64,000 bases of DNA from contig RSEE01000060.1 of NCBI GenBank assembly GCA_003971905.1, forward strand, positions 310,001 to 374,000, written 5' to 3'. Position numbers and translations under genes: made by a program. Shown one piece after another: positions 20,987 to 64,000 of this stretch. The notes beneath the pieces are model-generated. The model saw nothing but the letters and a program-made list of their open reading frames with translations, did not search any database and was not told where the DNA came from. This stretch comes from Moniliella sp. 'wahieum'. Its lineage: Eukaryota. Each line of letters begins with the position of its first letter. Within the stretch, counting starts at the first letter, position 1.

Positions 20987-23932
20987 CTGGAGTGCCTCCT
21001 TTGCTGTGAAGAACCATTTTCTCCTGACGCACTCCGTGTCTGATTTCGAGTGTACATCCTGTCTACCATTTGACTCCTGTCGTGTTAGTATACGCCATAT
21101 TGTTGATCTTTCTGCTCTATACTTGTCCTCTCGTTGGTCGTACGAGGCATCCTGATAGTAGTCTACAGTGAGTATAAAGTAAATGTATTAGCCCCAACCT
21201 TCTAGAACGCAACACAACCGTAAAGAAGCTACATAGTACATTCCCACTATGCATTCTAGGTTGGAGGGAGTGAGTCTGGCTCCCACAAAGTAAATCTCTT
21301 GCTCCCTAGACAACCCCATCTTACCTTGAGCACCAGATGCACTCCACCAACTGTGTTCCAATTTGTATTTCGCTCATTGTTTCTTCCGCGCCACGGCATT
21401 TCTCTCTCAACCAGCAATGGCAGAGCCAAAGAGGACTCAGCTATTACATTCCACCCCCAACAGCAGAGTGCAGTTTCCATTCGCTTGGAGCCAGGGATGG
21501 CGCGTATTAACAAGCGAAATGTGTATACCCTGATCCGAAAAGGGGGTGCGGGGGAGAGGGCGCCTGTGTGCCGGCAATGTGGATGACGCAGTTTATCTCC
21601 CTGTTTTAGTGCCTGTGTTAAATTTTGCTCTTTAGAAGTCTTCATGAGGCTCGCCCATCCATGGATCTTTATTGTACACCGTGTTTTGGTCCTCTCGGCC
21701 GGGGGTTCTTCCAATGAGCATCCTCTAAACCCCCAATGGCCGAACGGCATATATGGCTTCAAAAGGACCGAGATCAACCTTGGTCACCATCTTATATACG
21801 TCTGGCGCTTTTGACCAGGAAGAACCGACAGAACGAACAATGCTGACTGAGAGGCCATTAAAGGGTAGTAGTGTGGGTTAGGAAGCCCCCCCCTAGATAG
21901 CCAAAATCCCAAAACGTGCGATGACTCTCCAGTGGACAATAAGAGCACAGTGGGAAACTGTATCCAGACACCTTGTCTGATACCTCTTCCACTTCGTTGA
22001 CACATGTGGGGTAGTCTATCGATTAGGAGCAGGTTGAACGGTGAACGAACAAAACGATTCAGAGCGAGAACTGAGTACTGGTGACTATTGACTGAGGGTC
22101 ACATGGCTCACCGGCGCGAAGACAGATGTATAAGACGAGTAATAGTGCAACAGACGTGAAAGGGAGAATGGAGGTAGCACCTAAGCAGTGTCGGCGAGGA
22201 AGCAGACCTGACAAATCACATCCCTTCTGCACTGTTCTATCCGACTCTCCTTTTTGTTCTGCCTCTGACGGACTCCTCTTTTGGAATGCTACTACCCTCA
22301 TCCCTCTCCCTTCATACACTACCAGTTCAGATATACAAAGCTCCCACAAATGAGCACCAAACGTCGGTGGTCGGACACTGTGGGGAAAACAGTATATATC
22401 ACCTTCAGAAGAGCAAACACCAGTGCATACACTGGCTGCTTACGCGCGGCCTACGGACCAAGATAAGGTCACAGGTGATGGTCGGACCATATACCGACAC
22501 GCGATCCTCTCCCCATGGCTTCATTTCCAGTTGCGTTTTGTCTCTGGATCAAGAGAGAAACTGTAGGTGTGGAGGGAGAACGCATATACTTTGCCTGGTT
22601 TGCCTTCCGCGGGGTTCGGCACCTGGGCTTGCGCTCCTTTCTGGCATCTACATATTAACAGAATGTGGAGAGAGAGCTAAGTGGTAAGTATGTAGGTGTG
22701 GGAGCCTTACGGGCCTATACGAGTACGCTCAGGCTCTGATTACTACAACAAAATGCTCGCGGCGAGTGACATGATGAAGGTGTTATGGATTGCCAATTGC
22801 GGCCCAAACCACCTGTCGCGGCATGTCCCTGGCCGATTGCTGAGGAGATTGAATGTTGATCTATGTTACTTGGTCTAAGGTCTAAGATCTAAAGCTAAAG
22901 GAAGAGGTCCTCAGCCTGCGGCTATCGACTATCGTTTTGCTCAGGGCCGGATCTGTGGGGCCTCAGGCTCGGGGACTGAGGATTCAGGCGCTGAATAAGC
23001 ACCCTGTTTCAATTGGGACGGGCAGCGTCCTGGAATCCACTTCTACACGAGCCTGACCCTGCTTGACCTACCGTGTCTGCGTCTACATATGCTACTTCGC
23101 ATAATACTTGCCATATGTCACACTACAGGTCACGTCATGCTAACCAGGCGTCCCTTTCTCGCCTTGTGCTGAAAGTCATTTTGCCGAACCCGACGCACGA
23201 TGAGCTGACCATTATGGTAGGGAAGGTATAGGGCCGACGAAGAGAGGGGGGGGGGGGTTGGTGGCGACACGATGTGTGCTACTATCTCCACAGCACCGAA
23301 TGTGCTGGGTGCTGGACTACCGAATCGCCACCGGCAGCAACTATAATAGTGGTGGGATGGTGCTAAATATCTCCGCCAGAGGCACAATTGTAGAGAGGGC
23401 TGAGGGCTGAGCGGTCCATGGATCCACCACGTGCAGTGCGCTGGGTGGGTGGGGGGGGGGGGGGGCGCACGAAATTGGGTGTGGCAAGACCATTGAGAAG
23501 ACAAGTAAAAGTACAGGTACAACGCTTCGGGCGTATGGATGTGCCGGGGGACCAGCAGGGAGATGGAATGGAGAGGTTTGGGAGGATGAGAGTGAGCTCC
23601 ACGGCCCAGACGAGAATGGTGGGCGGGAACGTCGTGAGTGGCGTAGCGAGATTCGAGATTGCAACGAGGGCGGGCCAACGTGGATCCTGACGGCCTGATG
23701 ATCGGGAGGTGGTGTAGCAGATCAAAAGAACAAAAGGGCGCGTAAGGACGGGGGTATCCGTTCGGCCCTGGCCGGGCGATGAGACGAGGGGGATGAGGTC
23801 TTGAGCCAAATATTAATAAGCAGACTGCTGATGGGAAAAGAAGGTGTTAGTAGGGGAAGAGAAGCAGTTGAACAAGCAAGAGAGTTGATTGAAGCGTGGA
23901 AGGGCCAAGAGCGGGAAGACATACAAAGCGCA

Positions 23933-24037
23933 TCAGTGCGTGTGACGCATGTTCATCATTGCCTTGCAATAAGGACAGCGCTTGTGGCTCGTGTAGTCCA
24001 CGAGCGCCTTGCAGGAGGGGCACTGGAACCATTTCAT
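23933..24037 (-). CDS. 34-aa zinc-ribbon microprotein MKWFQCPSCKALVDYTSHKRCPYCKAMMNMRHTH (CxxC-x11-CxxC)
   Basis: Intact ORF from ATG 24037 to TGA 23933. TATATAA at 24260-24254; upstream intron 24155-24055 (GTGCGT/CTGAC/CAG) ending 17 nt before the ATG; 3'-UTR intron 23924-23828 (GTATGT/CTAAC/CAG). Confidence 0.7.
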   Translation of the reverse strand: MKWFQCPSCKALVDYTSHKRCPYCKAMMNMRHTH

Positions 24038-24253
24038 CCTCGGGGACTGAGGTGCTGTGGACGCAGGCGAGGGCGCAAGGTCAGCTAGGTGCCGCCACCG
24101 GAGGATGGGGAAACAGGCCGGCGGAGAGGGGGATGAAGGATCACGAAGGACGCACAGTAAGTGTTGGTGGCGGGAGGCGGTGTAGTGCTTTTGGTCGAGG
24201 CAGACGGGCAGAAGAGATGGAAGCTGCTTCGAGGCGTTGGCATCGGGCAGGGG

Positions 24254-24260
24254 TTATATA
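24254..24260 (-). promoter_or_regulatory. TATA box of the zinc-ribbon micro-gene
   Basis: TATATAA in a GC-rich context, about 100 nt upstream of the first splice donor. Confidence 0.55.
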
Positions 24261-27200
24261 GGCAGGGCGGGAGAGAGGGGCAGAGGGCGTAGCAGGCAGC
24301 GCCATTCCGTGATCGTCCAAGTTGGCGCCACTTGTGGCAGAGATCGATTATTTCGGACAGGGCGGCTCGGACGATCGATGAGTGGATATGGGTTGGGTTG
24401 GAGAGGGGATGAGATTGAGAGGCGGCTTCGCGCTGCTGAGCCGCTGTCAGGGCCTGCTGGGCGCTGGGCGCTGGACGCTCCAAGCTCCGAGGCTCAGGCG
24501 CTCACGTTGAGGCGCTCAGGCCTCAGGCGACGCTCCAGGCAAGCACGCGGAGGGCTGTTTTGGTGCGGTGCACCCTGGCCCAGGGGTGTTTCAGCGGGTG
24601 TGGTTCCTGACCCAATCAGGGATCCTGGGCCGAATCATCCATCCAGCTGTGACGCGTGGTACCGATGATCCGTCACGCGTCAAGCTTCAGCTTCCCGCTC
24701 CAGCTTCAAGCCAGACACTGATGTCGATGACTCGTTGCTGCAGATTCTTCGTCCCGAGCCAGTATACCTCCCGTGCGCCCGCTGCCCAGTCGGCTGACAC
24801 GCCGATTTGACATCCATCTCTTGCGCCGCTGGCCGAGTACGGAGAGTGAGAGTGTATAGCGGTTTGAATGTGGCCCGGCAAGCGCGGAGCCCCAAGAGTG
24901 GCGGGCGGGTTGGGCGTTGTTGGCGCTGGGCGCAGTGCGTGGTGTGCACTGGCCGCCCCGTCGCCCGACACAGGCCAAGCAGCAGACAGACACCCCCCCG
25001 CGCGCAGCACTGCTCTGCCCCTGCCACCTGCCCCCTCCAGCCCCCGGCTGAGGCTCAGCTTCAGCCCGCGCCGCCTCACACTGCCTCCGCGCCTCGAACG
25101 CACTGGCTCGCACTAGCTCAGTGTATATATACATCACTCCGGCGGCACAAGTAGTGCGCTGGTCAACGTTCAACCCTTCGTCTTGACAGCGCCGATTCAA
25201 CTCAAGGGTTGTAGAGATGTCTTCTGTACTCACTCTATTCCTGCTCCCCAGCCACCCCCCCCCCCCCCCGCTCCCGGACCTCACATGTCACTAGCACTGG
25301 CCTGACCGCCACCCCTATGATAGAAAGAAGTATAGCACACAGCTGCGCTTTGCTTACTACCCCGTGACTAATATATAATCATTTATCCCAATTCATTGAA
25401 CGTGACCCTCGGCAAACCAAGACAAAACCATACGTTGAACACGCAGACGACCTGGTCAGGCTATCCAGTGTCTGTCCTGGCAATCACATAGGCAGTCTCT
25501 CTCTCCTCACGCGTCACGCGTCACCCACGTTCGTGACGGTCGCCTAAGAGCGTGTGTTTCCCCCTCGCCTAAAAACAGCTATTACACCGAGCAATCCAAC
25601 AATGCCGTCTCCTGTTGCTCGGCCTGAAAGCGAGCACACAAATCGGACCCCAACGACCTCACCCGCCTATTGCACATGCACACATCGTGTGGACAGAAAA
25701 ATCAGTGGCGATGTCCCCGGACCCTACACGTCATCCGCCATTCCTCCACCGCACAAAACTTCTTCTCCATACTCTCCACACAGCAGCCAGACAACAACAG
25801 CATGATGGTGTGGCCTTGGCAATGTGGGACGGCATACAGTTCGAAGATTTGGACTACAGTGGGGATAAGGAAGAGGATCGATCGGATCACGCGTCATGAG
25901 CATTATACGCTTAGCCTGAGCGCTCGTCTTCTACAGCCCAGCAGCAAAACTGATAGGATTCCACCACGCTCACGACCTGCTTGTTACACTTGCACTTTAT
26001 CGTCCTGTGTGTACAAACAGCGATACTTCGACGGCTTGGCTTGGACGAAACGCCGGAACGCTTAATGGACCCCACGGAACGCTTCGCCGGACGTCGATGT
26101 ATCGATGATGCCAGATGATCGGTGACGATGATGACGTATGATGCATGATACATGACGTGTGATGTGTGACGCGCCTCCCGATTATGGCTTGCTCCTCCAG
26201 GGGCCTTGTGGTCGTACCCCTTGAGCGTCTGGTCCAGGGGTGGTGGATCCGAAGCGGCTCAGCCTACCGCCTCCTACGGCGTGCATGTCAGTACTTCGGA
26301 CTGGGAGTACGCAGCAGTGCTTGGTACTTAGCAGTTCACCAGTGCTGGTGAGACTCAGACTGAACGTACTCAGAATCAGTACCAGTATCAGTATGCTCGC
26401 ATGTCACATGTCACGCATATATGTCAAAATGTCACGCACGCCACAGGACTCAGTCGGAGGCCTTGGTCCGAGTGCGGCCGCGTGCCCGGCGCCACACCCT
26501 CCAGTCTCGGGTTCACGCGTTCACGATCAAAATGAACATATGCACGGCCCTGCCAGCCTTGTGGCTTTCTCGTGAATCATTAATCATTAATCATTAATCA
26601 TTGCGCCATGGCAGTCCGTTGGAGCCCCGCCGAGCCCCGCCGAGCCCCGCTGAGCCCCTAGGAGCATCGTGCATCCCACATCAGATCCATCAGACCCCGG
26701 GCTCAACAAGGCACCCGGTTCACGCGTCACATGCCACATATCACACTAGCTGCAAGCTCACGCGTTCACGCGATGCAAGTGATGCCTCCGCACTGGTCCG
26801 CTGGGCAGCCAGCAAGACAGGGGGCACATGGCCCTTTTCTTCGTTCCACCTGTTCCCGACACGCTCCAGCAGGCTCCAGCAGGCTCCAACAGACGCACGC
26901 CTTTGCGATCCGCCAGTGTGCCAGGGCCCCCGTCTGTCCCCTGCGCGCATGCCTCCACCAAAGACCCACAATACCCACACCACGCATCTTCACTGCAGTG
27001 GGTCCTGCTAGTCTGCTAGAATAGGACCTGTCACATGTCATGCGTCTCATGTGTCATGCATGCCACACATGGTCACTTGCCAGCGCATCAGCAACGCTGA
27101 AGCTTGACGAACAGAGGGACGGCGGGACTGTTGATGCCATCGAGCGTGAGGCTCAGCCTGAGCGCAACGAGAAGGGTGGGCGTGACGCGTGACGACCTGC

Positions 27201-29701
27201 CGAATCGTGAGGCGCTGAACTCGAGATCTCTGAAGTGTTCTGCTAAGGATCTCAAAGGGTGTCTACAGGTGTCCCCTTGCGCGGGGCCGTGGTAGAGCTG
27301 CTGTATGATATTTGAGTTCTGAGAGACTATGTACCGGCCAGCTCATCAACCATTTAGATCTTCAGCTTCGGTCCTGTCCTGCACGGCTGGCTGGTCCTGC
27401 ACCCGTCCCTGAGCGGGCCAATGAAAATCGTCCGCGCCACACTGCGCGTCACGCGCGTCATGCATCAGGCCTCAGGCTGAGGCCTCAGGCGTCGCCGTCA
27501 CGCGTCACGAGGACACTAGTCACCGCCACCGGGTCACCACCGGGTTTTCTACGATCTAAGATCTAAAGCTCCGTGCGGCTTGAGCAAAAATCTGGTGGCT
27601 ACCAACATGTAAACGCTAAGCATGCAAGTACGGAGAAGTAATTAGTGCTTGTACAACTACGTGTCGATTCCGACCCTGACATACTAAGCCCCTCGGTTTG
27701 ACACGTGCTCTTATTTCGATCTTATTCAGCTTCAAGCTTTACCCTTCAGCTCCGCCTGAGACTGCGGGGGGGGTTAGGTGGCTAAAGGAGGCTCAGAAGA
27801 TTTCACAGATGTTTTCGCCAGGAGTACGGCATGTCGCAATGTGGCGCTCTGTGGGGCTGGGGTTGTCGAGCTGTCCATCTATACAACACGTATTCCCCAC
27901 CCACCATGCTCTTATGCCTTTCCTGAGACCCTCAGACTCAGAAGGTTCAGGGTCAGATTGAACAATCGCCTAACCCGATCTAGTATACCGATCCGACGCG
28001 CCATGCACATAGTATGTTCGGCTCGCGCCTCAGGCTGATGCATGCAGTATGGTTCGACCGCAAGACACACATGTAGGCCGCCGGCGCACCACTGGCGCAC
28101 CCCTTCCTTCGGATTGATTACTGAGATGACTGATTTTTGATTCTTCCGACGCCCCTTGTGCGCGCGTTTGCGTATCTAGATTCACCACCCTGCGCTCCGT
28201 AGGTCTCCCGCCTACTGTCTGAGTCTGACCGTGAGCGCCTAAGCGTCTGAGAGTTGGGGCTTGGGCCAGGGCAGGAAAAACGGGAGGAGTAGACGTTCGG
28301 CCGAAGGGCCAGGGGGCTGAATAATGAAAAGTGAATAGTGAATAGTGAATGCCATCGAGGGCTTGTCCCGCGCACGGGGCAACACAACCGGAAGATTGGC
28401 GGTGCTAAGTTCTGTCAAGCTTCAAGCCTTTTCAAGCTTTGGCAAAAAGCTTTTCAAGCTTCAAGCTTCAAGCTTATTCAAAACGTTTTGAGTTTCTACG
28501 TCCAAGGTCCAAGGACTACTACTTTAACTTCCAACTCCTCTGTACCCCAGATGGGTGTGGGCGCAATTAATGAGCAAGGAAGGAAATGCTACAGGAAGCA
28601 TGAAGCTACATTGACTAACTAAGCGTGAGGACAAGAGACTATCTCAGTGGGGAGCACCAGAGCGCAGACCAGCTTGGTAATGCATTGACTAACTAAGCGT
28701 GAGCTCCAGTGTAAGATAGGAAAACGGGGGGTATGACTTAATGGTCTACCATCCAAACCCTTGTCCCCACCCTTGTCCACCCTCCTGCCCAACCGCCCGC
28801 GCAAAAGCGAAGAGATGCGCCCAGGCGAAGGTGTGTGCCGCCGGCCGAGGAACCATTATGATGCCACAAACCATGTCACAGTACTAAATCTCCACCGTTG
28901 CTCCCTCTGGTCTCTTGCCGCCAATCTCGCCAAGGGTTTTCTCCTTTCGTTCTTGATTTCTTTCTTCGTTCTTTATGTTCTCTATACTCCACAAGCTCCT
29001 CGAAGCCTGGCGACGCCTCTTTTCCCGCCCTATAATATCGCCCCCCTTTCTGTCGCCTCGACGGGAGGACGGACATGGGGGCAGTGCGGGATGGATGGGA
29101 TCTCGCTACCGCTATCGTTACTGCTACGCTACCGTCTGGGCCGTGCACCATGCTTCCATCTTCTACCTTCCACCTTCTACCTTCCACCTTGCTACTTCCA
29201 AACAACGTCCACCGTCCAACTTGGCGCAGCAACGTTTCACGTGAGAGCAGTAACATTTCCCCGCCAAAAACGAGCGGGTGGTAGGAGGAACGCTACTGGG
29301 GGGCGTGCTCGTTCCCCTGGCCAAGGTCACGGCCGTACGGGGCACATGGGAGAACCACCAGGTGGGTCGCTAGGCCAGGGGAAGAGAGAGAGGGTCGTGG
29401 CGTAAATCACTAGAGGGCAAACAAAAAAAACAAATGCAGCAGCGGAGCAAGACGAGAAGAAGAGAGAGTCGTCCACGTCCCCGTAAACGGGAGGCAGGAT
29501 CAGAAGAAAAGAGAAAAGAGAAAAAAAAGGGTAAAAACAAAGGAGACGATGATCTATCGGGCGGTTGGTGCGAGAGGGCCATGAGCCAACTGAGCCAACG
29601 CGGCCAAGCTCCGACTGCAGGCGGCCGAGAGGAGAGAGGGGGGGGGGGGGGGGGGGGGAAGCAGTGTCCTTTTGTTTGGTAAGGGAACGAGCGGGACACG
29701 T

Positions 29702-31221
29702 TTACTTGCTTAAAAGCGTATGAATCTCCGAGAGGATCCCGAGGCCTTGGCGGGCAGGAGCGCGGGCTGGGTCTTCGCCCACCCGGAGCGTATCAGGCAA
29801 AGCGGGTTGGCTTGGTTTGGGTCCGGCCCAGGGGAAAGGGAGGTACTCTTGCAAGTATTCAAACGACACAAGGGTTGCGCCGAATTGGGGTGAGGAGCGT
29901 AGGACACGAGCGAGGGCCCTTGAAGAATGCTTTGGGACCTTCTTGGACCAAAATTTTGCCAAAGCAGTCGGTGATGCCCTTGTACGTGGCTTGGCCCTTA
30001 CGGGCTTCGACTTGCAACCGCGTTTTGATCACGTCGGCCGGCGTGGTGAAAAAGGCGGCGGGCATACCACTGATCGACGCGGCCGCCAACATTTCCCACC
30101 CAAACGACAGTTTCTTGCCATTCTTGCCCTCGTGAAACGTGTCCTTTTCAGATGCGCATAGGCAGGGAAGTAGATCGCACTAAATGGAATGTCCCAGCAG
30201 CACGCTCCAGCACCTTTGTACAGTCCACGAAGACCCAAGTCTTTCACAATCTGCCCGGCACCCAGCTTTTTGACCCCTTCCACCTTGGCCAACTCTCCCT
30301 GAACTTGAAGACGGATCTTGACAATCTCTGAAGGTCATACAGGTTAGCTGTCTTCCTGTCACTCATAGGGGTGGGACCCGGATGATAAGAGGAGAGAGCT
30401 GGCGCGTGGAATAGGAGAGAAATCAAATCGGAATCGGAATCGGAATGGAGATGTATATACAAAACAAAGAAGAAAAAATGTATAGAAGACGTACCCAACG
30501 GATTGGTAAAGATGACTTGGCACCCTCCCGCCGAGCCACCAGCGACCAACTCCCACTTGAGCGCAATCTCTCCTGTGTGAGGGTCCGTGGTCTTGGACCG
30601 AATCAGATCATTGACCGTCAACTTGATAGCCTTTCCGGTGCGACGCCAATGAGTTGTGGGCCCAGTCCCGAATAAAACCCGAGAAAGCCCTCGTTACGAA
30701 ACACTTTGCCAACACAGTCCAACGAGTTTTTGTACATCGCCGCCTCGCCCACGGGAGCACGCTGGTTTTGCATCCGCGTCTTGACCAGGTCAATGGGATA
30801 GACCAGCGTCGCACCGACCGATCCTGCCACGCCACCAAGCAAAGTGGTACACAGCATGGGCTAGGTCGTACAGCAAGCCACGCCGTGTTGGTGGGGCATC
30901 ACCAGGGGTAGAGGTAGAGGCAGCAGTAGACAGTGGGGTCCTTTTGGTTTTGGTTTTGGTTTTGGTTTTGGTCGTGCCCCGCCGCGGGAGGTGAAGGACG
31001 CGAGGGGGCAAAGTCATCTTGGATGGCGAGCTGGTGATGGAGGCGTGCCGGGTGAGCGGGGTCCTTGTTCTCCGCATAGCTCACCCCGCCCCCGAGCTGC
31101 TGGAAGCGGTGCAGACGCTCCGTAAGCGCGCATTGTCCCCCTCGGTGCGGAAGGTGGCAGTGAGGAGGAACGGGGGCTGCTCCTCGCACAGCAGCGGCTT
31201 GGTCTGGGGGAAAAAGATCAT
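29702..31221 (-). CDS. AGC1: Mitochondrial aspartate/glutamate carrier (AGC1/aralar-citrin family) with a short N-terminal extension; frameshifted
   Basis: [59 protein letters not shown] across intron 30494-30328 (GTACGT/CTAAC/CAG); [48 protein letters not shown]. Confidence 0.93.
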
Positions 31222-33169
31222 TGAGCGTGGTGGAAAGCCAAGACAGAACGGGGCGCTGCGTCTCCAAGAAAGGGGCAACACAAGGTCAACCTGAGCAACG
31301 GTGGGAGGGGGGAGGGGGGACACACGAGGTGGGCGGCGCACGCTAATTGCTAATCGCTAGCCGTCGGTACTGTGCGGCTTTTCCTTTTCCCCTCGGCTTC
31401 GGGCCAGCGCCTGGTTGGGCCCTTGTTTGCGCTGCTGAGCCTCAACGCTCAGCGGCTCAGTACCCCCCACAGCGACACCGCCACCGCCTATAGATAGCCA
31501 TACAGGACACACGACCCCCGCGCCCACTCCCCCTCCTGGCCTTAGCGCACGTTACGCGTCACGCGGTACTAGTTACTAGTTATTAGTTACTGGCCCCTCG
31601 GCCCCCCACACTGGCGCCAGGCCGAGGGCGGAGAGCTGCTGCGCCCACGGCGGCTGCGGCGACAAGGTACGAGGGACTATTAGTGACTAGTACCACGCTC
31701 AGCCGGAGCGGCCCCTGTGCCCTTTAATTGTTGCGGATGGCTGCGGTGTCCCCTGGCGCTGCGAATGTTCTGGTAGCTCTGGGCTCAAGGGGAGCGCCCA
31801 TCTCATCGTCAGCGCGTCAGCTTCTTGTTTGTTCCATGCAACGTGGCCGACCCAACCGCGGAAACAACGGGTAGCCCTGGGTTCACGTCGGGCATCAACT
31901 TTCAAATGCATCGAATGAGGTAGGAACGGTACCTACGCGTGTTAGTTATCCGGTAACGCGTAACGCGTAACGTTTAACCCCCGCTTCTGTTCCGCCAGCG
32001 CCCCCAGGGGGAAAAGCGGGCAGACGCCCACCCACACAGGCAGTGGCGCAGCAGGGCGCAGCAGGCGTAGGCGCCCTCCCATACCTGAAGCCCACGGGGG
32101 GTACTCGCTCCTAGCGCCTAGCGCAGCGTCACGCATCCACCTAGTAGCTCGGCCCAGTTACCATCAGTTCCGTCATTCTGAGTATTATATCCTCTCGAGA
32201 GCATGGTTCGGTGCCAATCAATAGAATACGTACGAACATGACTAGTTTGAAGCTAGCCCCGGCGCCTCTCTAGCTTTCACTTACAGTACCATCTGCTTAG
32301 ACCATCGCGACCGCAAGACCAGTCGCGCGAGCCTCTCTCTGATCGATGGAGAGGGCTATTGTTGTTGGCACAGAGGTGACGATCACGCATGTTGATCGCA
32401 GTGAGGCCTGAGGTGATCATCTCGATGATGCATCTGCCTCGCACGCTCCCACCCACGCCGTGATCAGGGGGACTGCCAGTGTAGTAACGGTAAAATGACA
32501 GTGGTACGGGTAATGGTACTGAGGTACTGAGACTGCGGTATTGAGGTACTGGCGTACTGGGGTGCTGCCGAGGGATAAAAGTAGTGTATACGGAGGCGAG
32601 ACCGGTGGGGCAACAGGGTGGAGCGGGGACAGGAAGGAGAGGAACAGGGACAGGGATAGGGCAGATATGTATGGGGTTAGGGGTTTGGTGGGGGAGAGAA
32701 AACAGACTGCACATCTTGGCCGGCAAGACGGTGTGTGTGTTCTTTTTTTGTGGATGTAGGAAGGGGAAGAGAGAGGAAAGGAGACTGGGCGACGAGGTAG
32801 AAATGGGCAAAGACAACAAGCAAAAAGCAAAAAGCAAATAGCAAAAAAGCAAATAGCAAATAGCAAATAGCATCCAGGCAGAAGAGATGATCAATGTTGC
32901 CCGGCTTTTGCCATGCAAAAATCAGTACCCAAGTGCCCAGTGAGGAAGGGCTGGAGAGAGAGAGAGAGAATCGAGAAGGCACACACTCTCTTCGCATCGC
33001 ATATTCCCCCTGGAAAGGCAGAGTGCAGGAGTGCCGACCTCACCCCGCGCTGCCACGCGCTCATAAGGGCATGGACTGGAGATGGTCATGGAGCTGGGGA
33101 TGGAAACGGGAAAAGAAGGAGAGAGAGAAGAAGAAGAAGAGGAGCAGTGTGGTGCAGCTCTTGAGAGGC

Positions 33170-33444
33170 TCATCGGCCGCTGGACCGCTCGGTCCATACG
33201 GCCGTCGAGGAAATGCATCCCAGAACTTGCATTCGGACCAGAGCGGCGAAACGCGCAGCCGGCAGTGCGGGCAGATCTTCATTGGTGGTTGCGACCTGGG
33301 CAAGAAGACAAACAGGAAACGGAAACGGAAGCAAAAAAACAGTGCGTCGGTGCCCATGGGGATAATAGCGGGAGAATCGAGAGAGAGAGTCAGCGCATGC
33401 CTATGATGGCAGATAGACAAGAAGGGGCACAAGACGTACGACAT
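33170..33444 (-). CDS. Spliced zinc-ribbon-like microprotein MSSQPPMKICPHCRLRVSPLWSECKF[C]GCISSTAVWTERSSGR (one base restored); uncorrected it reads on to 33061
   Basis: CCACC-ATG at 33444; intron 33439-33296 (GTACGT/CTGAC/polypyrimidine CAG) splices in frame. TTCTGGGATGC needs +1 nt to give TTC TGY GGA TGC, which completes CxxC-x10-CxxC. Confidence 0.55.
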
Positions 33445-36075
33445 GGTGGGTCTGCTTGCGGGGGGGGGGGGAGCGAAGAGAGGTGAGGGGTGCGGTGGGG
33501 TGCGGGGGACTAAGCGTTAAACGTAACCGGTAACCGTTAAGCGGTACTCGGTTCCAGTATCGCTCCAAACCAGGGAGACAAAACAGAGGGCCGCAAGGGA
33601 AGAAGAGCAAAGGCTCTCGGAGAGAAAAGGCTGGACAGAACAAGGTGTGGTACAGCAAAGGGGAACGCCAAGGAGGGGACAGAAGCGCTGAGCGGCCTGC
33701 TGCGCACTCCCCACACTGTTCAAAGATATATTGCCGAGGGGGGGTGAAGTTGGCGCTGAGGAGCCACTAGTCAACCAGTCACTAGGCCTTGGGTAGTGGG
33801 TTAGTCGTATGGGCCAGGGTGGGTGCGAGAGTCGTGGCGGTGTGATGGGTGATGGGTGGTGGGAAGGATGACGGGATGCGGTGTGGCGCCGGGTGAGGCG
33901 AGCGGCGCAGCGCAGGCTGCATGCGCTCAGCAGCTCCGTAGCATGCAGCATGCCGGCATGCCAGAGGTGTGAGCGTTGCGGAGCCCAGGTGGGGCGACGC
34001 ATCGGGCGTAGTCTACGCCCTAGAGCAGACACAGCACCAAGGCACAGCGCAACGCACTGGTAACGCACTGGTAACGCACTGGTCCTGCCGGCATAAGACG
34101 GAGGGATGATCGATGAATACGGATTCGATGGATGATGGAGGTTTCCCTGTCGATGATTATGCCAGGCGCCGCCGTCGCCTGTGGTGAGCCTGTGGTTGAA
34201 CCTTGGCTCAAAGCCAGTGCGCCCCACACTGGTACCAAACGCTAGAGCCCCACGGAGTACCGAGTTGAAGACTCATCACAGCCAGCATGCTCTGCAGCCC
34301 GACGGACACATGTTGCATCGTCGTGGCGTTGGGATTAGTTTTGGAGGGGAGATGCGGCAAGAGCAAGGCCTATAAGGGGGGCGCAATGCACCATCCCAGG
34401 AGGGGGGGGTAGTCAACGTGCCATCCGAAGCGAAGAGGGGAGGGAATCGCAGAGGGACGAAGCTGGAAGCTCGAAACTCGAAGCTGGATGTGCGATGTAC
34501 ACAAAGGGCGCGTTAGTGAGTACTGTGTGCGTTGGAACGTTGGTCAGCTCGGATCTCAGAATGGTTGGCTGCGCAGCATCACACATCACGTGTCGATCAA
34601 CGCAGTTCGTGCCACATGCCACGTGACATGCGACATGTGATGCATGTGACATGTATGTGACCTACTCGGTTCTCGGGCCTCGCACTTCGCCCCGCGCCAC
34701 ACCAGTGCCACAACTCTCTCGTGTCACATGCGTCACACGGCTCTTCACCTGCCCTGCTGCACAAGAGGGGCGTGGCTGCCAATTAATTACACTGCTCCCT
34801 CGTCGTTCCACGGTCCAGGTCCAACGTCACCAGCCACCTTTTTTTCTCTCTGACTGGATGACCTTTCTTACTAGTTACTGTCCATCCTCTCTTCCGCTCC
34901 GTTCCGCCTTGCCCGGTGCACGCGCCCAACCGGCGCCGGGACCTTTTCCTACAAGTATACTGGGTGGGTTTGGGCGCGGGGAGGACGCTGTTTTGTTGCG
35001 TGTGGGGTTGTGAGATGGTAGATAACTTTGCTGACCAGCCGACGCGGGAAGCGCTTGTACAGCAGATGACTGGTGAGGATGGACGACGAGAGAACATGGC
35101 CAGGGAGAGATGGGAGCCCGAGAGATTGCTGACCGACTGAACGAGCTGATGGTGGAGCCCAGGGAAGGACGTCGCGGGGCGTACTGAGCCACTGACTTCG
35201 GACCCCGCGGAGGGCTCGGGCTGAGCGCTTGAGCCTGCTGAGGCTCAGCGCGCAGTCCTCGGGGCCGCACAGCCCCGCAAGGCAGAGAAGCCGACGCCAG
35301 GCAGGTGCGACTGCCATGCACAAGCACATGGCCATCATGCACATCATGCATTACATGCTCACAGGCCGCATGCCCAGTCGCACGAGCACTGACGTCACTC
35401 GCGTCACTAGCACTAAGCACTAAGCGCTAAGCCCTCCCGCCGACATGCCGGTGAGGCATGCAGCCATCGCACACTCGACTGGCTGGCTGTTCTCGGCAGT
35501 CGAAAACTTTCCCAATCCAGTGTTCGGTGTACCCTACGCACTCAGCCTGAGTATGAGGGCGCACATGGCGCCAAGCCGGTCCGACTGCGCGCTCCATGGC
35601 CCTCGCTGAGTCGCCTGCGGCCCCGCAGCCTGGCTGCCCCCCGCCGCAGAAGCTACCGGAGCATGCGCGGCTGCGCGCCTGCGCACCCGCGGAGGCGGCT
35701 GGTCGTTGGTTGGCGTTTTGCCCCCCTCCCCCTCACCGCTCGCATGCATCATGCATCATGCATCACATGCATCATGCACATCGGCGATCCTGCCTCCGTG
35801 CATCCGAATCAGCAGTCACCGGCATCACGCCTGCGTACTCCGTGCCGCAGCACGCAGCAGGCCCGTGTGCGAGTCACCGGTCACCTGACATAGTCACCGC
35901 CGCCGCCCCCGCCAATCTCCAATGTTCAGTTCAGCGCATCCAGCCGCTGCGCCCCCTGCCTGCGCCCCGCCCGCGCTGCCGGCCGCTTCTGGGCGTGCTT
36001 TTGAGCATTCGCACCTTGGTGCGTCGCACGCTTCCTGCGTCCCCCCCCACCACCCCTCCCGCCTCCTGTGCCGCC

Positions 36076-39330: not shown

Positions 39331-39449
39331 TGGTTCTCGTCCTCGGTTCTCGGGTCTTGGTTCCCGCTTCGCGATTCTCGGTTTCCGGTTCGCTGGTCTA
39401 GGTTCGCGGTTCTGAGTTCTCGGTTCGCGGGTCTCGGTTCTCGGTTCTC
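39331..39449. repeat. Degenerate heptamer array (GGTTCTC/GGTTCGC)n
   Basis: Read directly, about 16 imperfect copies. Confidence 0.85.
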
Positions 39450-39640
39450 GCCCCCCCCCCCCCTCTTCCTCCCAGCGCACGTCACGCTCTTTCGTTCATT
39501 TTCAGTTGTCCCCCCCTCGCTCTTTGACCCATCACAGCGCCCGCTGCACCGCGGAGGCAACCCCGTAACCCGCACAAGACAACAGTCACATCTGTCTGTC
39601 CGGCATGCCTCGCTTTCTCCTTTTCTTCTCTTTCTTTGTC

Positions 39641-58700: not shown

Positions 58701-59485
58701 GTACCTGCTGCGCCACTTTGCCGACCCACGCGCATGTACGAGGCAAGGCAAGAGTCCCTCGAGCTGGCTCGGTTGGCTGCACAAGAGGATACGGCCAAGG
58801 TGCTCGAACATCACTTTGACCTGCTCGCCCTGTCCACCAAGGTCGATGCGGAAGCACAGGAAAGCGGGGACGAATGGGACGGTGCCTCGGATGGGGCAGT
58901 AGATACGGTATCCGAGTCCCATTCGAGTGATGGAGCCGGACCCGCGTCCCAGGATCTTGTTGAGGATGCGACCGCGAGCCTGCCCCCACCTTGGACCGAC
59001 TCCAAACCCCCTTTTGCCAGTCAGACTCGCACGTCGAGCTGGGAAGAAAATGCCTTGTTAGCCGCTAGCTTGGCCAAGTTGGCCGAGGAAGTGCAGCGCA
59101 ACCAGCCCGAACAGTCAAGACAGCAAGGTTTCCGGAAGTCCCGGTTCGCACTGGGTCTCCCGATACGAGCGCGGCAGGTGCACTCCCCCCCGCTGTCGGT
59201 GTACCAAGTCCAAGTGCCTCGGGTCGAGAGGAACCCGCACCCGCCCCCCCGCCCTATTACGACGAGGGGGGGTACCGCGCACGACCGCAAAGGACAGTAT
59301 GTGGTACGGGACCGGTTGCCTGGAAACAGGATCGCATGTTGGTCCTGTTCTGGTTGCCTGCTCTGGTACTTGCTTCGGTACTGTTGTTGCTCTATTCGCC
59401 CATGCTCGGGAGGATCTCCGCTTCTGGGGTTGGTGGACATGTGGACAAACAGGTGACATGGGGTCATGCAATGTGGGGTCACTAG
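55743..59485 (+). CDS. MGA2: Spt23/Mga2-family membrane-tethered transcription factor (IPT/TIG, ankyrin, C-terminal TM); frameshifted, start uncertain
   Basis: KSRVETQ(I)RMRIEL; CDSCCTRERKR; LPTRITCYCRHHKETVGF...TPPIMITDDHK; IPT PKISQLIPREGPTTGGIEVTVLGENF; DRGLMELALQVVGLKMTG; ankyrin GQTMLHLA and GLTPLHFA; TM DRMLVLFWLPALVLASVLLLLY. Confidence 0.95.
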
Positions 59486-60123
59486 TCACTGGTCACTGGT
59501 CATGGGAGCCCGAGTTGGTCCCCGTCGGTGGGGGTAGGGAAGCGAGAAAGTGTATCTATGCTACGAGAGGTTGTGGTCCTTATTTTGTTTGTTCTGTACT
59601 TGCTTGAGAAGGTGTTCGTTTGTGACAACTATTATACTAATTCACGCTGGAGATGTTAGTACTTAGTACTTGTCTTCGAAGGTTAGAAATGAGAGAGACA
59701 ACAGGTATGTATGCAGATACGCAGAGAGGGCGAGAGATCGATCATGATCGACGTTCGAGATAACACCTAAGTTCGTATAAGTAGATCTTGATGTACTACT
59801 CAGTACTCAACGTACCCAACGTCCAAACCGTCCTCTCACCCATCCCAACACCGAAACAATATGGTTCGCACTGTTGTTCCGGTGGAGGTCGGAGTTGGGA
59901 TGGGATGATGCACATCATGCATCATGATGCAGGGGCTCGCTTCGAAACCTATAATAGTATCCGTATGTATTCCAGTCCCAGGTCAAGCTGCAGGCTTCAA
60001 GGGACCAGCTAGCTATCGTGACTAGTGACTAGGGACTACTGGGGAACGACTATAGTAAACCAGTAAATAGAGAAATGGGTGTTGGAATATTCCAAAAGTG
60101 GTGACTTGTGGTGCTCATGGGCA

Positions 60124-60257
60124 GGAGAGGAGAGGAGAGGAGAGGAGAGGAGAGGAGAGGAGAGGAGAGGAGAGGAGAGGAGAGGAGAGGAGAGGAGAGG
60201 AGAGGAGAGGAGGAGAGGAGAGGAGAGGAGAGGAGAGAGGAGGAGGGAGAGGAGAGG
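60124..60257. repeat. Polypurine pentanucleotide microsatellite (AGAGG)n, about 130 bp
   Basis: Read directly. Confidence 0.98.
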
Positions 60258-60538
60258 ATGGGAAAAAGCTACGGAGGAAATGACGAGAGGTTCAAGTAAC
60301 GATAAGGAAAAGAGATCGTTGTGCAACCGAAATGCTGATCACCAGCAGGCTCCAACCAATTGCACGAGATGGGTGTGTGGACATAAGTGTATACATGTAT
60401 CATGGTGTGTGCCAACAAAGAAAGTGATGACAATTTGAAGCAAAGCAGGCCGTACTCACAAGTGATATGTGCCCGATGACCTACCGAAACCGTAGATCAT
60501 AGTATGAGAGGACCAGGATGGCAGGATGGTCTGCAAGG

Positions 60539-61750
60539 TCAAGCAACGTTGCTTAGAACCGAGCGGGCCGTGACCTGCGGGTCAATGGCACTAAGGGTTG
60601 ATGTGGCCATGCCAAAGATGCCGGAGGTTGAAATGCAGTCACAGAAGTACCGTGAGCTGCACCGGAAGAGAGAGCTGGTGGGTGTCATAACGGCACGCAA
60701 ACGGGGAGGGGAAGGGGGGTTGGAATGGTCCGGAACTCCGACGGTGGTCTCTTTCTTCACATTTTTCTCTTCAGTCGTGACCGTGGGTGGTGTCGAGGGA
60801 GTGGTGAGGGGCAAATCTGGCCTTAACTTTTCAGGATCGCCAATTTTGTCCTTAGGGTCAAACTCCGTCGGTGATGGTGTATGGTAACCGTAAGGATACC
60901 CGCGGTGAGAACGATGGACGTGTGCGGCGTGGCGGTGGGAGGAATATAAGCAGCCGAAAGACCAATGAGCACATCCCATCCGCCCGGTACATTGTGATCC
61001 ATAAGGTTGTCCAAACGGAATGAAATGGCCTCGGTGCATCCGAAAAGGATGCCGGCGTGGTGGACAAGACTGCGTTAACGTGTGTGCAAACCTTCTCTGC
61101 CATCTCGTCCGACATGGTTGTGGAAGCGATGGCAGGGTTGGGGATGGAAGGGACGAGACAGTCTCATTGACGGTTTGTCTCCTCCGTTGCCATGTCGATC
61201 TGCTCAACATGGTCGGTTGCTTTCTCACTTACAGGGAGATTCTCCTTCGCAATGGCGCTTCTCCTGAGCCTTTTTCATGTACGGCGATTGCACCAGATAG
61301 CGTAGAACATATCGCCGTGCTTAACGTTTAAAAACTGTTGGCATCTGCAGAAGAGGATGTGGGGTTAGGGCGTGTGACCCGCATCACAAATGATATTGTC
61401 AGATAGGGTGAGGAAAACGTACCATCGCAGCGCTGAACCCGAACCGAGGGCGCAGAGATGCAGGACCAGTGGGGGGAGAGGGCTGCATCGAGGTCTTTGA
61501 AATCTGGCGGGCTGGGGCGAGGGTGGGATGAGGATGGGCAAGGGCGTTGGAGAGAACGAAGAGGGCGATGCGTTGGGTGTCAACTCATGTCCGAGTCAAG
61601 GACCTGCAGGTGAGGGGGAGCCATGGTGGGTAGAAGGGATGAGAGCGGGCACGAAGGGGAGGAGGGTGGCGACGAGGGCGGATAGAGGGGAAAAGGAGCC
61701 AAACGTTGGTGCAGGGGGAGTGGGGGGGCAGCGACGGAGAAGATTATATA
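60539..61750 (-). other. Putative spliced, lineage-specific or degenerate gene of unknown function
   Basis: TATATA near 61750; an intron with GTACGT near 61422, CTAAC and CTGCAG near 61346; downstream protein-like but interrupted frames (ORFs 60858-61115 and 60539-61228). No recognisable domain. Confidence 0.3.
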
Positions 61751-63441
61751 TGTGTGCCTTCGGACTGTGTTATTATAATCGCCCCTTCGATCAATAAGCT
61801 CAATCGACACACGAAATAAGATATGCCCATCGGCTCAGCGCTCAGCTTGAGGCTGAGCGGTCACCGCGGGGCACCCTGTATGAGGGTGGTCTAGGCCGGT
61901 GTGTACAGTACGGCCGCACCGCCACAATCGGACAGCGAGTAGCAGCGAGGGCTCGGCTGAGATTCGATCATGAGTCGGGAGTACTGAGTACAGGATGGAC
62001 CAGCACTAAGTACTAGTAATTTGTGCATGAGAAGAGAGCGCTTGAGAGCACGTTGAGTATCGAAGACAACGAGAAGAGCACAGGTCAACAGGGGGTATTG
62101 GTTCGTTATTACATGGGTGTGCTCTATCTCTGTGCGCTCGCACGGTACGGTATACGTGTGGTGGAGCAAAATGGTAACGTTAAGCGAGAGACGTCCTATT
62201 TCAGTCTCATCAGTGGAAACCGTATGCCCAGGAGACTGCGAGAGCTGCGCCCATAGCAATCTCATGTGGTCAGAGCCTGTATCGGGCTTACATCGCTTAC
62301 GCCCAGCACGCACTATTTGCTGTCAAAAACGCACTTCCGATATCCTCAGCAGGAACGATGAGTCCGATGAGTGTGTGTCTGCAAAAAGGTTGATCGATAT
62401 ACAATCACCATAGGGGGGTGCTGACGGGGTTTACACGTATGTATTCACTACAAGGTTCACACTGATACAGACAGCATTGTGGTGTCAACGAAGCTTCCCA
62501 TACTTAGTACATATGGCTTTCCCACACCACGGAGTTCAGTCTGAATATTCACCCCGAAATATATGGAAGACAAGAAGTGGGGTAGAAAAGGTATGTTTCG
62601 GCATAGCGGCAAAACAGCAATTTAACATTGTTTGTTGTGTGGTTGGATGTCGTCTCAAGGATTGCGTGGTGAAAAGGTATCACGACAGATTGTGGTTACA
62701 CGGTCGTAAAGCTCCCGAGCTCTGTTGTTCTCAGTTCGATTCTGGGCGCAGTCACTTTTTTGCGTGGCAAGTCCCACTCTAAGTTTTGTTCAAATGTCGT
62801 CCAGCCAATTGGCCAGCAGCAGCAAAGAGTAATAACAAGGAGACCACCGGGCCTACGGCCCGGTCTGATGGGGCTTCGCCCCACAGCCTGTCCTTGCGCT
62901 GATGGCGACGCTCCATGGCCATCTTTCCCCCCATGTCCACCATTCCATCGACGCCCTTCCCCTGGTCCACCCGTTCCAAAGGCCCCCTTCCCATCGTCAA
63001 CGCTGTCCACCGTTCCATCATCCTCAGAGACCTTCACTCCCATGTGCAGCATAGGTTAACGTTCCATCTATATTCACCGTGTGGCATAGTATACCGTTCT
63101 GTAGTCAGTAAGATCAGCAGACCAGTTCTCTTTTATAGCATAGAGATGAGCTTTGGAAGCGAGTGAGGGGAACACGAAAGGCCCTGGTTTGCGTTTGCTG
63201 GCGATTCCACCGGCCTCTTGATTGTTGAGTTGGGACGAAACATACTATCTGTGCCACACTTCACAGGATGCGTTATTAACACTAAGGTAGAGGTGATGTG
63301 TATATGTGTGTGCATGGTATATCGGGATAGACAGAACCAAACAACACTGCCATCAAGTCTGATCCCCATATGATGCTTGATCTGGTCCGCTCATCGACTC
63401 ATCCTATCTCCAAGGTTCGTTTATTGCATCGTACTTCGTCA

Positions 63442-63554
63442 TTATCCATCACTTGATGAATTATGATCTTCTTTGTAGTGTTCCACATACTGTGATCAGG
63501 ACTTGAACACCTCGCGGCAGTGAGGACAGTATACGTCAATGAAGGGCCCGCCAT
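63442..63554 (-). CDS. Single-C2H2-finger microprotein or its pseudogene: MAGPFIDVYCPHCREVFKS*SQYVEHYKEDHNSSSDG (needs +1 C in a C-run and has an in-frame TGA)
   Basis: C-x2-C-x3-F-x5-Y-x2-H-x4-H spacing is exact across the TGA at 63498-63496. TATATAT at 63794-63788; intron 63695-63575 (GTATGT/CTCAC/CAG) ends 20 nt before ATG 63554. Confidence 0.5.
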
Positions 63555-64000
63555 ATCGCAATCGAGGTTGAGAGCTGTGGATCAAGAAGTGGGTGAGTAT
63601 ACTGTCACAGCCGGGACTCGGCTCCAAACAAAACTTGCTGAGACTCTGCTTTGGATCGTGGAGATCTTGGATCTGAGAGAGAGAGGAACACATACCTGTG
63701 CCTGCAATGCAGTGGCGCTGGGAGAGGTCCGATACGAGAGTTATATCGGGGGGATAATTGGTGGAAGTAGAGAGAGAAATGGGAAAAATATATACGCAGG
63801 AGAGAGAAGTGCAAAAACTCCGCACTGCGTTCACAGATCTCTCTCGGTTACTCAGTATCTTCGCTCTGTGTCCGGTCCATGTTTGCGAGGGATAATGACG
63901 GGAGAAGGCCGGGCTATGCCCCAAACATCGCATAGAAGATACTCCCTACCCTGGGACTCCACTTGCGCTTTCTCATCATACACGGCCGGATCATGTGTAC

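What the first reader, a model, noticed from the sequence alone, without database searches (positions are those of the whole stretch)
23828..63794. Dispersed set of spliced zinc-binding micro-genes hidden in apparently empty intergenic DNA
Seen: three minus-strand loci (about 24.0, 33.3 and 63.5 kb) each encode a 34-43 aa peptide that is essentially one metal-binding module (two CxxC..CxxC ribbons and one C2H2 finger), below the 60-aa ORF cut-off. Each has a canonical intron ending 13-20 nt before the Met that precedes the Cys motif. Two also have a TATA box about 100 nt upstream of the donor. Inference: an unannotated class of stand-alone Zn microproteins (competitors or adaptors, metal or redox sensors). 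The peptides are not obviously homologous to each other, so a shared function is unproven.
Basis: partly seen in the sequence, partly recalled or inferred. Interest (0 to 1): 0.8.

Follow-up and report, generated by a model that had tools for sequence, protein, structure and literature searches.

The report
One candidate zinc-ribbon micro-gene, two misreads
Of three proposed hidden zinc-binding mini-genes in this fungal DNA, only one, a 34-residue zinc-ribbon reading frame, is there as described, and it remains an unproven candidate; the other two are a half-motif and a stop-interrupted finger with no in-frame start.

Summary
The window is GC-rich basidiomycete DNA (the AGC1 carrier is closest to Ustilaginomycotina). 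The assembly carries about one single-base frameshift per 200-300 coding bases.

Locus 1 is confirmed. It is a 34-aa ORF (24037-23933, minus strand) with CPxC-x12-CPxC. A TATATAA lies 217 nt upstream, and two intron-like elements pass a strict pattern. Its third-position GC excess ranks at the 99.6th percentile of 554 small ORFs. An ORF under 100 aa with two CPxC knuckles arose in 1 of 400 shuffled windows, a post hoc test. No homologue was found, and no fungal genome DNA could be searched.

Locus 2 has one CxxC and a lone Cys. Its ORF is 73 aa, not 43 or fewer, it matches no family, and its motif occurs at chance frequency.

Locus 3 has a C2H2-like pattern with an in-frame TGA, and the cited Met is in another frame.

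Generic "intron + Met + CxxC" ORFs numbered 2 against 0.54 expected; 12 of 100 shuffles gave two or more.

Verdict: there is no class. Locus 1 is one plausible orphan zinc-ribbon micro-gene (about 0.5).

The parts
24254..24260 (-). Locus 1: TATATAA box, 217 nt upstream of the ATG and about 100 nt upstream of the first donor
   Evidence: TATAWAW heptamers number 25 in the window against 2.55 in shuffles (0 of 100 shuffles reach 25).
24055..24155 (-). Locus 1: putative 5' leader intron (101 nt). GTGCGT donor, CTGAC 25 nt before the CAG acceptor; it ends 17 nt before the ATG.
   Evidence: passes the strict pattern. Not verified by transcripts. The strict pattern as such is at chance frequency (17 against 17.3).
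23933..24037 (-). Locus 1: 34-codon ORF plus TGA, encoding a C4 zinc-ribbon-like peptide (CPxC-x12-CPxC). A at -3. No ATG between 24240 and the start.
   Evidence: ORF. (GC1/2/3 = 0.38/0.44/0.82). (99.6th percentile for GC3 excess and 92nd for codon score among 554 small ORFs). (Zn_ribbon_ACC 25.6 bits against cut-off 24.5; other ribbon families below their cut-offs). (1 of 400 shuffles). (AF2 pLDDT 74.3). Leader read by eye.
23828..23924 (-). Locus 1: putative 3' UTR intron (97 nt). GTATGT donor 8 nt after the stop, TACTAAC 18 nt before CAG. An AT-rich stretch follows at about 23805-23820.
   Evidence: passes the strict pattern. Not verified.
33296..33439 (-). Locus 2: GTACGT...CAG element (144 nt). 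ATG 33444 has a CCACC context, sits 2 nt before the donor, and stays in frame with ATG 33282 whether or not the element is removed.
   Evidence: It fails the strict intron pattern because the only CTGAC is 93 nt from the acceptor.
33061..33282 (-). Locus 2: 73-codon ORF that starts M-K-I-CPHC, with a lone Cys 10 residues later and then a CT-rich low-complexity tail. Judged non-coding or chance.
   Evidence: (0 Pfam families at E<=10). (no homologue). (recognition 2151, no usable hit). (pLDDT 61.5; motif region 58-62). (codon score at the 75th percentile).
63788..63794 (-). Locus 3: TATATAT box, about 95 nt upstream of the GTATGT donor
63575..63695 (-). Locus 3: GTATGT...CAG element (121 nt). 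Its best branch-like site is CTCAC, which is not the CTRAC consensus. It ends 20 nt before ATG 63554.
   Evidence: Not in the strict intron list.
63399..63554 (-).
   Evidence: (0 families). (GC3 0.47; 57th percentile for codon score).
63463..63528 (-). Locus 3: C2H2-like pattern (C-x2-C-x12-H-x4-H) in another frame, interrupted by TGA at 63498-63496
   Evidence: Searches, with X at the stop: zf-C2H2_jaz 23.8/23.0 bits against cut-off 22.6; zf-C2H2 21.0/18.7 against 25.2.

Best explanation
There is no family of three. Locus 1 alone is a compact, TATA-driven transcription unit on the minus strand: a leader of about 70 nt, a 101-nt intron, a 34-codon ORF, a 97-nt intron just after the stop, and an AT-rich 3' end.

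Its product is a stand-alone, basic C4 zinc-ribbon peptide. The two CPxC knuckles hold one Zn2+. By analogy with other small basic zinc ribbons, the peptide docks on nucleic acid or on a larger complex.

Shown: the ORF, the motif, the sequence signals, the codon-position bias and the motif's rarity in shuffles. Inferred: transcription, splicing, translation, metal binding and function.

Locus 2 (one CxxC plus a lone Cys, with a low-complexity tail) and locus 3 (a finger-like pattern with an in-frame stop and no in-frame Met after the putative intron) are chance or decayed motifs in non-coding DNA.
For: Locus 1:
- Intact ORF with CPSC-x12-CPYC.
- An M-to-stop ORF under 100 aa with two CPxC knuckles 7-40 residues apart arose in 1 of 400 block-wise dinucleotide shuffles of the window. 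With one or more CPxC it arose in 11%, and with any CxxC pair in 50% (a post hoc test).
- GC3 is 0.82 against GC1 0.38 and GC2 0.44. That excess is at the 99.6th percentile of 554 ATG ORFs of 25-60 aa in the window. The codon log-odds score of 0.14 per codon is at the 92nd percentile and within the 0.06-0.44 range of the Pfam-supported training pieces.
- A directional TATATAA lies 217 nt upstream, in a window where TATA heptamers are ten times enriched over shuffles (25 against 2.55).
- By eye: no ATG between 24240 and the start codon, and A at -3.
- Both flanking intron-like elements pass the strict pattern. They resemble the one intron validated by homology in the AGC1 gene (GTACGT...CTAAC-17 nt-CAG).
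- Pfam places the peptide among zinc ribbons. The Atlas gives recognition 2678 (above 2300), with small rubredoxin-like and zinc-ribbon clusters as nearest neighbours at 0.87-0.90. AF2 from the single sequence gives pLDDT 74.3, with a hairpin plus a helix.

Loci 2 and 3 are not genes as described.
Against: No relative was found. The exact sequence is absent from about 15 billion proteins. phmmer against 1.84 billion representatives gave 4 hits at E<=0.001, all long repeat proteins with many ribbons. The word-index search of 22-70-aa proteins gave no candidate. PDB sequence hits were all at E>=0.24, and Foldseek gave 0 hits.

Generic signals are at background. The strict intron pattern is 17 against 17.3. 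A small ORF with any CxxC pair occurs in 15% of shuffled windows.

GC1 of 0.38 is unlike the window's coding average of 0.60.

The assembly has about one frameshift per 200-300 nt. The start, the stop or the size of any short ORF could therefore be an artefact.

The AF2 and Atlas scores for a 34-aa Cys-rich peptide are weak evidence, and no chance CxxC peptide was folded as a control.
Confidence: 0.45

Rival explanations
1. All three loci, locus 1 included, are chance ORFs in non-coding, pyrimidine-rich intergenic DNA. A motif-hunting reader picked them out; nothing is translated.
For: A small ORF with a CxxC pair turns up in 15% to 50% (wider definition) of shuffled windows. 'Intron + Met + CxxC' gave 2 against 0.54, and 12 of 100 shuffles gave two or more. 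The strict intron pattern is at chance. No homologue was found for locus 1 or locus 2. In passages of a fungal review, only 9 of 373 presumed sORFs in S. pombe had a detectable peptide (PMC11413187).
Against: For locus 1, several independent features combine: two CPxC knuckles (1 of 400 shuffles), a GC3 excess at the 99.6th percentile, a TATATAA at a promoter-like distance, an ATG-free leader, and A at -3.
Confidence: 0.35
2. One reading: three spliced micro-genes form an unannotated class of stand-alone zinc microproteins.
For: All three have a GT...AG element ending 13-20 nt before a Met. Two have TATA boxes. Each contains a CPxC.
Against: Locus 2 has no second ligand pair and fails the CPxCG-related motif definition (definition from passages of PMC2253796). 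At locus 3 the finger is out of frame with the Met and carries a TGA. The loci are not similar to one another. The signature is not enriched over shuffles. Coding statistics for loci 2 and 3 are unremarkable.
Confidence: 0.04
3. Locus 1 is not a stand-alone gene. It is a piece of a longer gene whose frame is broken by assembly indels, or an upstream or leader ORF of a non-coding or other transcript.
For: The assembly has 5 frameshifts in 1,190 aligned nt of AGC1. PLA2_B is split over all three frames. The ORF's frame is open for 106 codons upstream. ATG 24243 would be in frame after removal of the putative intron (and arithmetic). A 238-codon stop-free frame starts 87 nt downstream of the ORF's stop.
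Against: None of the flanking frames hits Pfam (1 of 101 pieces in 21-31.5 kb matched ribbon families, and that piece is the one containing locus 1; the other 3 hits are the carrier gene). The flanking translations are Pro/His/Arg-rich low complexity. phmmer at any length found no longer protein containing the module. ATG 24243 lies only 10 nt after the TATA box.
Confidence: 0.1
4. Locus 3 is a relic, or a mis-assembled copy, of a real single C2H2 finger gene. One extra base in the G/C run just after ATG 63554 would put that Met in frame with the finger.
For: The canonical spacing and hydrophobic positions are kept. zf-C2H2_jaz scores 23.8 bits against a cut-off of 22.6 with X at the stop. Frameshift errors at runs, including a GGGCCC context, are documented in the AGC1 gene. 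A TATA box lies upstream.
Against: The TGA lies inside the finger, in the same frame as both halves, so an indel cannot explain it. GC3 of the second half is 0.24 and the codon scores are ordinary. zf-C2H2 itself is below its cut-off. Finger-like patterns with stops allowed occur 1.47 times per shuffled window. No RIP-like composition is seen.
Confidence: 0.1

Closest known systems
CPxCG-related small zinc finger proteins of archaea and bacteria (e.g. Brz of Halobacterium salinarum; passages of PMC2253796 read)
   Same: Locus 1 is shorter than 100 aa. It has two Cys pairs 12 residues apart, both of the CPxCx form, and no other domain. That family was also partly found in unannotated six-frame translations.
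   Different: This is a eukaryotic, apparently spliced locus. Neither knuckle has the Gly of CPxCG. Sequence similarity does not go beyond the knuckles. Expression and metal binding are untested. Loci 2 and 3 do not meet the motif definition.
Pfam zinc-ribbon families (Zn_ribbon_ACC PF17848, Zn_ribbon_3 PF13248, DZR PF12773)
   Same: The locus 1 knuckles and the flanking aromatic and hydrophobic residues align to ribbon profiles.
   Different: Only Zn_ribbon_ACC passes its cut-off (25.6 against 24.5), and it does so through two partial stretches (11 of 26 profile positions in the best). Zn_ribbon_3 (23.4 against 27) and DZR (20.1 against 27.3) are below theirs. The likeness is to a generic fold, not to a family.
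Classical C2H2 / JAZ-type single zinc fingers (PF00096, PF12171)
   Same: The locus 3 pattern is C-x2-C-x12-H-x4-H, with an aromatic residue before the first Cys and Phe after the second.
   Different: It is interrupted by a stop, there is no in-frame Met after the putative intron, and zf-C2H2 is below its cut-off.
Small eukaryotic zinc-ribbon subunits such as RNA polymerase subunit Rpb12/RPABC4 and ribosomal proteins eL40 and eS27 (named from general knowledge, not from any call)
   Same: These are small basic proteins built around one C4 ribbon, and they act by docking on nucleic-acid machines. This is the working model for locus 1.
   Different: They are conserved and recognised by Pfam. 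Locus 1 matches none of them.

Membership tests
CPxCG-related small zinc finger proteins (definition from PMC2253796) | Protein shorter than 100 residues | tested here: met
   Locus 1 is 34 aa. Locus 2 is 73 aa.
CPxCG-related small zinc finger proteins (definition from PMC2253796) | [quoted passage not shown] | tested here: met
   Locus 1 has CPSCK and CPYCK, 12 residues apart. Locus 2 does not meet it: after CPHC the next paired pattern (H-x3-H) lies 53 residues away. Locus 3 does not meet it: the second pattern is H-x4-H and lies beyond a stop.
CPxCG-related small zinc finger proteins (definition from PMC2253796) | The protein is made and binds zinc | not testable with these tools
   No transcript, ribosome-profiling, mass-spectrometry or metal data were available.
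Pfam zinc-ribbon families | Score at or above the family's gathering cut-off | tested here: inconclusive
   Locus 1: Zn_ribbon_ACC 25.6 against 24.5, from two partial stretches; Zn_ribbon_3 23.4 against 27; DZR 20.1 against 27.3. Locus 2: 0 families at E<=10.
C2H2 zinc finger (PF00096 / PF12171) | Uninterrupted C-x2-4-C-x12-H-x3-5-H inside a translatable ORF | tested here: not met
There is an in-frame TGA at 63498-63496. With X at the stop, zf-C2H2 scores 21.0 against 25.2 and zf-C2H2_jaz 23.8 against 22.6.
Spliced protein-coding micro-gene | Canonical donor, branch site at a normal distance, and acceptor | tested here: inconclusive
   Both locus 1 elements pass the strict pattern; neither the locus 2 nor the locus 3 element does. 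The pattern is no more frequent than in shuffles (17 against 17.3). The reference intron is in AGC1.
Spliced protein-coding micro-gene | Coding statistics above those of other small ORFs | tested here: met
   Locus 1 is at the 99.6th percentile for GC3 excess and the 92nd for codon score among 554 ORFs. Locus 2 is at the 75th percentile for codon score. The locus 3 Met ORF is at the 57th.
Spliced protein-coding micro-gene | Conservation of the ORF and its Cys codons in related genomes | not testable with these tools
   Protein searches found nothing.
Spliced protein-coding micro-gene | Transcription, splicing and translation | not testable with these tools
   No expression data.

The most novel reading that the evidence does not exclude
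Locus 1 is a genuine, translated 34-residue CPxC zinc-ribbon microprotein with its own TATA promoter and introns in both UTRs. It would be a eukaryotic counterpart of the archaeal stand-alone zinc-finger micro-proteins, conserved in Ustilaginomycotina but invisible to annotation. It would be the first of a set that a frameshift-tolerant, motif-aware scan of polished genomes would reveal.
Probability: 0.1. Interest if true: 0.55.

Novelty: new member of a known kind. Interest (0 to 1): 0.2.

Why it matters
If locus 1 is real, it adds a fungal example to the little-explored group of single-domain zinc-ribbon microproteins. It would also show that such genes hide below ORF cut-offs in basidiomycete genomes.

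The larger practical lesson is negative. Motif-plus-intron reading of raw sequence yields this kind of 'gene' at about the background rate. In this assembly, homopolymer indels break known genes into short ORFs. Small-ORF claims from it therefore need a polished sequence first.

Tried and rejected
- Exact look-up of 5 candidate peptides: 0 of 5 are in the collection.
- phmmer of the 34-aa peptide against 1.84 billion representatives: 4 hits, all long proteins with repeated ribbons or repeats, not orthologues.
- Word-index searches: locus 2 (73 aa) gave 2 candidates and none scored. Locus 1 gave no candidate when sent as a 40-aa reference beginning 18 nt before the ATG. The 34-aa form had been rejected as too short, and an out-of-range E-value had been rejected before that.
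- PDB by sequence: 9 matches, all at E>=0.24. Foldseek against the PDB: 0 matches.
- Paralogy among the loci or elsewhere in the window: only self hits.
- Rfam at gathering thresholds: 0 matches. tRNA scan: 0 genes.
- RIP-like composition at 63-64 kb: not seen.
- The bacterial promoter/terminator scan is irrelevant to a fungus.
- Pfam on 180 further ORF pieces of 55-134 aa in 21-35.8 and 59-64 kb. Apart from 3 carrier-gene pieces and the piece containing locus 1, the only match was a sub-threshold RSN1_TM hit (17.5 against 27) to a hydrophobic low-complexity piece at 32680-33039. I rejected it as spurious.
- The idea that the window's many short ORFs reflect many introns was rejected. They reflect frameshifts.
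- Complex prediction and the genome-contig scan were not used. There is no partner to test, and that collection holds only bacteria and archaea.
- Not seen: the supplement of PMC2253796, which holds the full motif algorithm.

Full report
**Context.** The window is about 59% GC. Pfam on ORF pieces finds ordinary fungal genes:
- muniscin/F-BAR at 0-2 kb
- Sec7 at 5-6 kb
- a C2H2 factor at 13.3-14.5 kb
- a mitochondrial carrier at 29.7-30.9 kb
- lysophospholipase PLA2_B at 36.5-38 kb
- ETF at 41.5-42.4 kb
- CCCH/Torus, RRM and PUF pieces at 47.6-54.4 kb
- an SPT23/MGA2-type protein with TIG and ankyrin repeats at 56-58.7 kb

The carrier exon is 79-88% identical to AGC1 proteins. The best named hits are Ustilaginomycotina: Tilletia, Pseudozyma, Thecaphora, Sporisorium, Ustilago, Malassezia and Ceraceosorus. 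No 100% hit appeared, so the window's own proteins do not seem to be in the protein collection. No Pfam domain was found in 21-29.7, 31-35.5 or 59.5-64 kb. Those are the 'empty' stretches that hold the three loci.

**The assembly is error-prone.** A frameshift-aware alignment of an AGC1 homologue to 30899-29708 (-) needs 5 frameshifts and one intron in 1,190 nt. By eye, two of the shifts are A-runs one base shorter than the reading frame requires, and one sits at a GGGCCC context.

The PLA2_B domain gives the same picture. Six of 22 ORF pieces carry consecutive parts of the 491-position profile, and they lie in all three frames. They span 1,538 nt, which leaves no room for normal introns.

The many short ORFs in the window are therefore mostly frameshift artefacts. 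The bounds of any micro-ORF are provisional. The one intron supported by homology reads GTACGT...CTAAC-17 nt-CAG and is about 165 nt long.

**Locus 1 (confirmed).** ORF 24037-23933 (-) encodes 34 residues with CPSC-x12-CPYC. Its surroundings:
- TATATAA at 24260-24254.
- An element at 24155-24055 (GTGCGT, CTGAC 25 nt before CAG) that ends 17 nt before the ATG.
- A second element at 23924-23828 (GTATGT, TACTAAC 18 nt before CAG) that begins 8 nt after the stop. An AT-rich stretch follows.
- Between 24240 and the start codon there is no ATG, and position -3 is A (read).

The statistics for the ORF:
- GC1/2/3 are 0.38/0.44/0.82. The GC3 excess is at the 99.6th percentile of 554 ATG ORFs of 25-60 aa in the window.
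- A codon log-odds model trained on 1,009 Pfam-supported codons puts it at the 92nd percentile. Its 0.14 per codon compares with 0.06-0.44 for the training pieces, which are self-scored.
- Pfam aligns it to zinc ribbons: Zn_ribbon_ACC 25.6 against 24.5, through partial stretches, with other ribbon families below their cut-offs.
- The Atlas gives recognition 2678, with small unnamed 32-36-aa clusters and rubredoxin-like or ribbon clusters nearest at 0.87-0.90.
- AF2 from the single sequence gives pLDDT 74.3, with a hairpin and a helix.

**How unusual is locus 1?** A small ORF with any CxxC pair is not rare: 0.15 per shuffled window for ORFs under 60 aa, and 0.72 for ORFs under 100 aa with a 7-40 spacer. 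With both knuckles CPxC it arose in 1 of 400 block-wise shuffles. That test was chosen after seeing the peptide.

TATAWAW heptamers number 25 against 2.55 expected, so a TATA box here is unlikely to be noise. The strict intron pattern, in contrast, is no more frequent than in shuffles (17 against 17.3), so the two 'introns' add little on their own.

**No relatives for locus 1.**
- The exact sequence is absent from the collection.
- phmmer against 1.84 billion representatives returned only 4 long repeat proteins.
- The word-index search of 22-70-aa proteins returned nothing.
- The PDB gave nothing by sequence or by fold.

Short ORFs are rarely annotated and no fungal genome DNA could be searched. 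This absence therefore weakens the case but does not refute it.

**Locus 2 (partly confirmed, rejected as a zinc module).**
- ATG 33282 opens M-K-I-CPHC, but only a lone Cys follows. The ORF is 73 aa, and the same frame is open back to ATG 33444, giving 127 aa unspliced.
- The GTACGT...CAG element (33439-33296) exists and keeps ATG 33444 in frame. Its only CTGAC is 93 nt from the acceptor, and it fails the strict pattern.
- M-x0-6-CxxC occurs 15 times in the window against 12.6 in shuffles.
- There is no Pfam family at E<=10, no homologue, recognition 2151 with no usable Atlas hit, and pLDDT 61.5 with 58-62 over the motif.
- It fails the published CPxCG-related motif definition.

**Locus 3 (not confirmed).**
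- The TATA box at 63794-63788 and a GTATGT...CAG element at 63695-63575 are present, and the element ends 20 nt before ATG 63554.
- That Met opens a 51-aa ORF without any Cys/His module.
- The finger-like pattern at 63528-63463 is in another frame and contains TGA.
- With X at the stop it scores at threshold for zf-C2H2_jaz and below threshold for zf-C2H2.
The in-frame TGA cannot be explained that way.
- Coding statistics are ordinary.
- Such patterns with stops allowed occur 1.47 times per shuffled window. The window has 7, of which 2 lie in the real C2H2 gene at 13.8-14.0 kb.

**The 'class'.** The three loci share no sequence. It occurs twice, at loci 1 and 2, against 0.54 expected. Twelve of 100 shuffles gave two or more. 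Among 26 small ORFs that follow an acceptor, 2 have CxxC, against a base rate of 15 of 883. A class is not supported.

**Comparison with known systems.** Locus 1 meets the sequence definition of the CPxCG-related small zinc finger proteins described for archaea and bacteria: under 100 aa, two patterns 7-40 residues apart, at least one of them CPxCx (passages of PMC2253796). That is what it most plausibly works like. Membership beyond the motif cannot be tested here. A review of hidden fungal genes does not contain the word 'zinc', and it stresses how few predicted sORFs are verified (passages of PMC11413187). My two literature searches turned up no fungal stand-alone zinc-ribbon microprotein. 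That is a statement about those searches only.

**Verdict.** I put about 0.5 on locus 1 being a real translated gene, and about 0.45 on the full statement, including that loci 2 and 3 are chance or decayed motifs. Interest is low to moderate.

Noticed in passing
window 29708-30899 (-) and 36506-38043 (+): The assembly carries frequent single-base indels. There are 5 frameshifts in 1,190 aligned nt of the AGC1-type carrier gene, at least two of them at shortened A-runs. The PLA2_B domain is split over all three frames without room for introns. Most short ORFs in the window are artefacts of this.
   Followed up: yes
window 29690-31300 (-): An AGC1-type mitochondrial aspartate/glutamate carrier without EF-hand hits, 79-88% identical to Ustilaginomycotina proteins. 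This places the window in that group of basidiomycetes. It has one homology-supported intron at about 30494-30328.
   Followed up: partly
whole window; clusters at 15367-16123, 25124-25378 and 43149-43158: TATAWAW heptamers are ten times more frequent than in shuffles (25 against 2.55). They cluster in a low-GC island at 15-16 kb (GC 0.47).
   Followed up: no
window 23133-23846 (-): A 238-codon stop-free frame (Pro/His/Arg/Ser-rich, with no Met until near its end) starts 87 nt downstream of the locus 1 stop, on the same strand. It has a weak codon score (13.9 bits over 87 codons) and no Pfam hit.
   Followed up: partly
window 21000-29700, 31300-35500 and 59500-64000: Three long stretches without any Pfam-recognisable coding piece, unusual for a compact fungal genome. 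No tRNA or Rfam family is found anywhere in the window.
   Followed up: partly
window 18100-21000 (+): A chain of abutting coding-like segments on the plus strand (codon scores 13-36 bits) with no Pfam domain. It is probably a real gene or genes of unknown family, again broken across frames.
   Followed up: no
window 63691-63693 (-): If the locus 3 element is not spliced, the ATG inside its GTATGT donor is the first ATG after the TATA box. It is in frame with the CPHC half-finger, giving a 65-aa ORF that ends at the TGA. No Pfam family passes its cut-off.
   Followed up: partly
window 32000-34000: Strong strand asymmetry (GC skew +0.23 and AT skew +0.23 on the plus strand). The minus strand around locus 2 is therefore pyrimidine-rich low complexity, which inflates Leu/Phe/Ser-rich open frames.
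   Followed up: no
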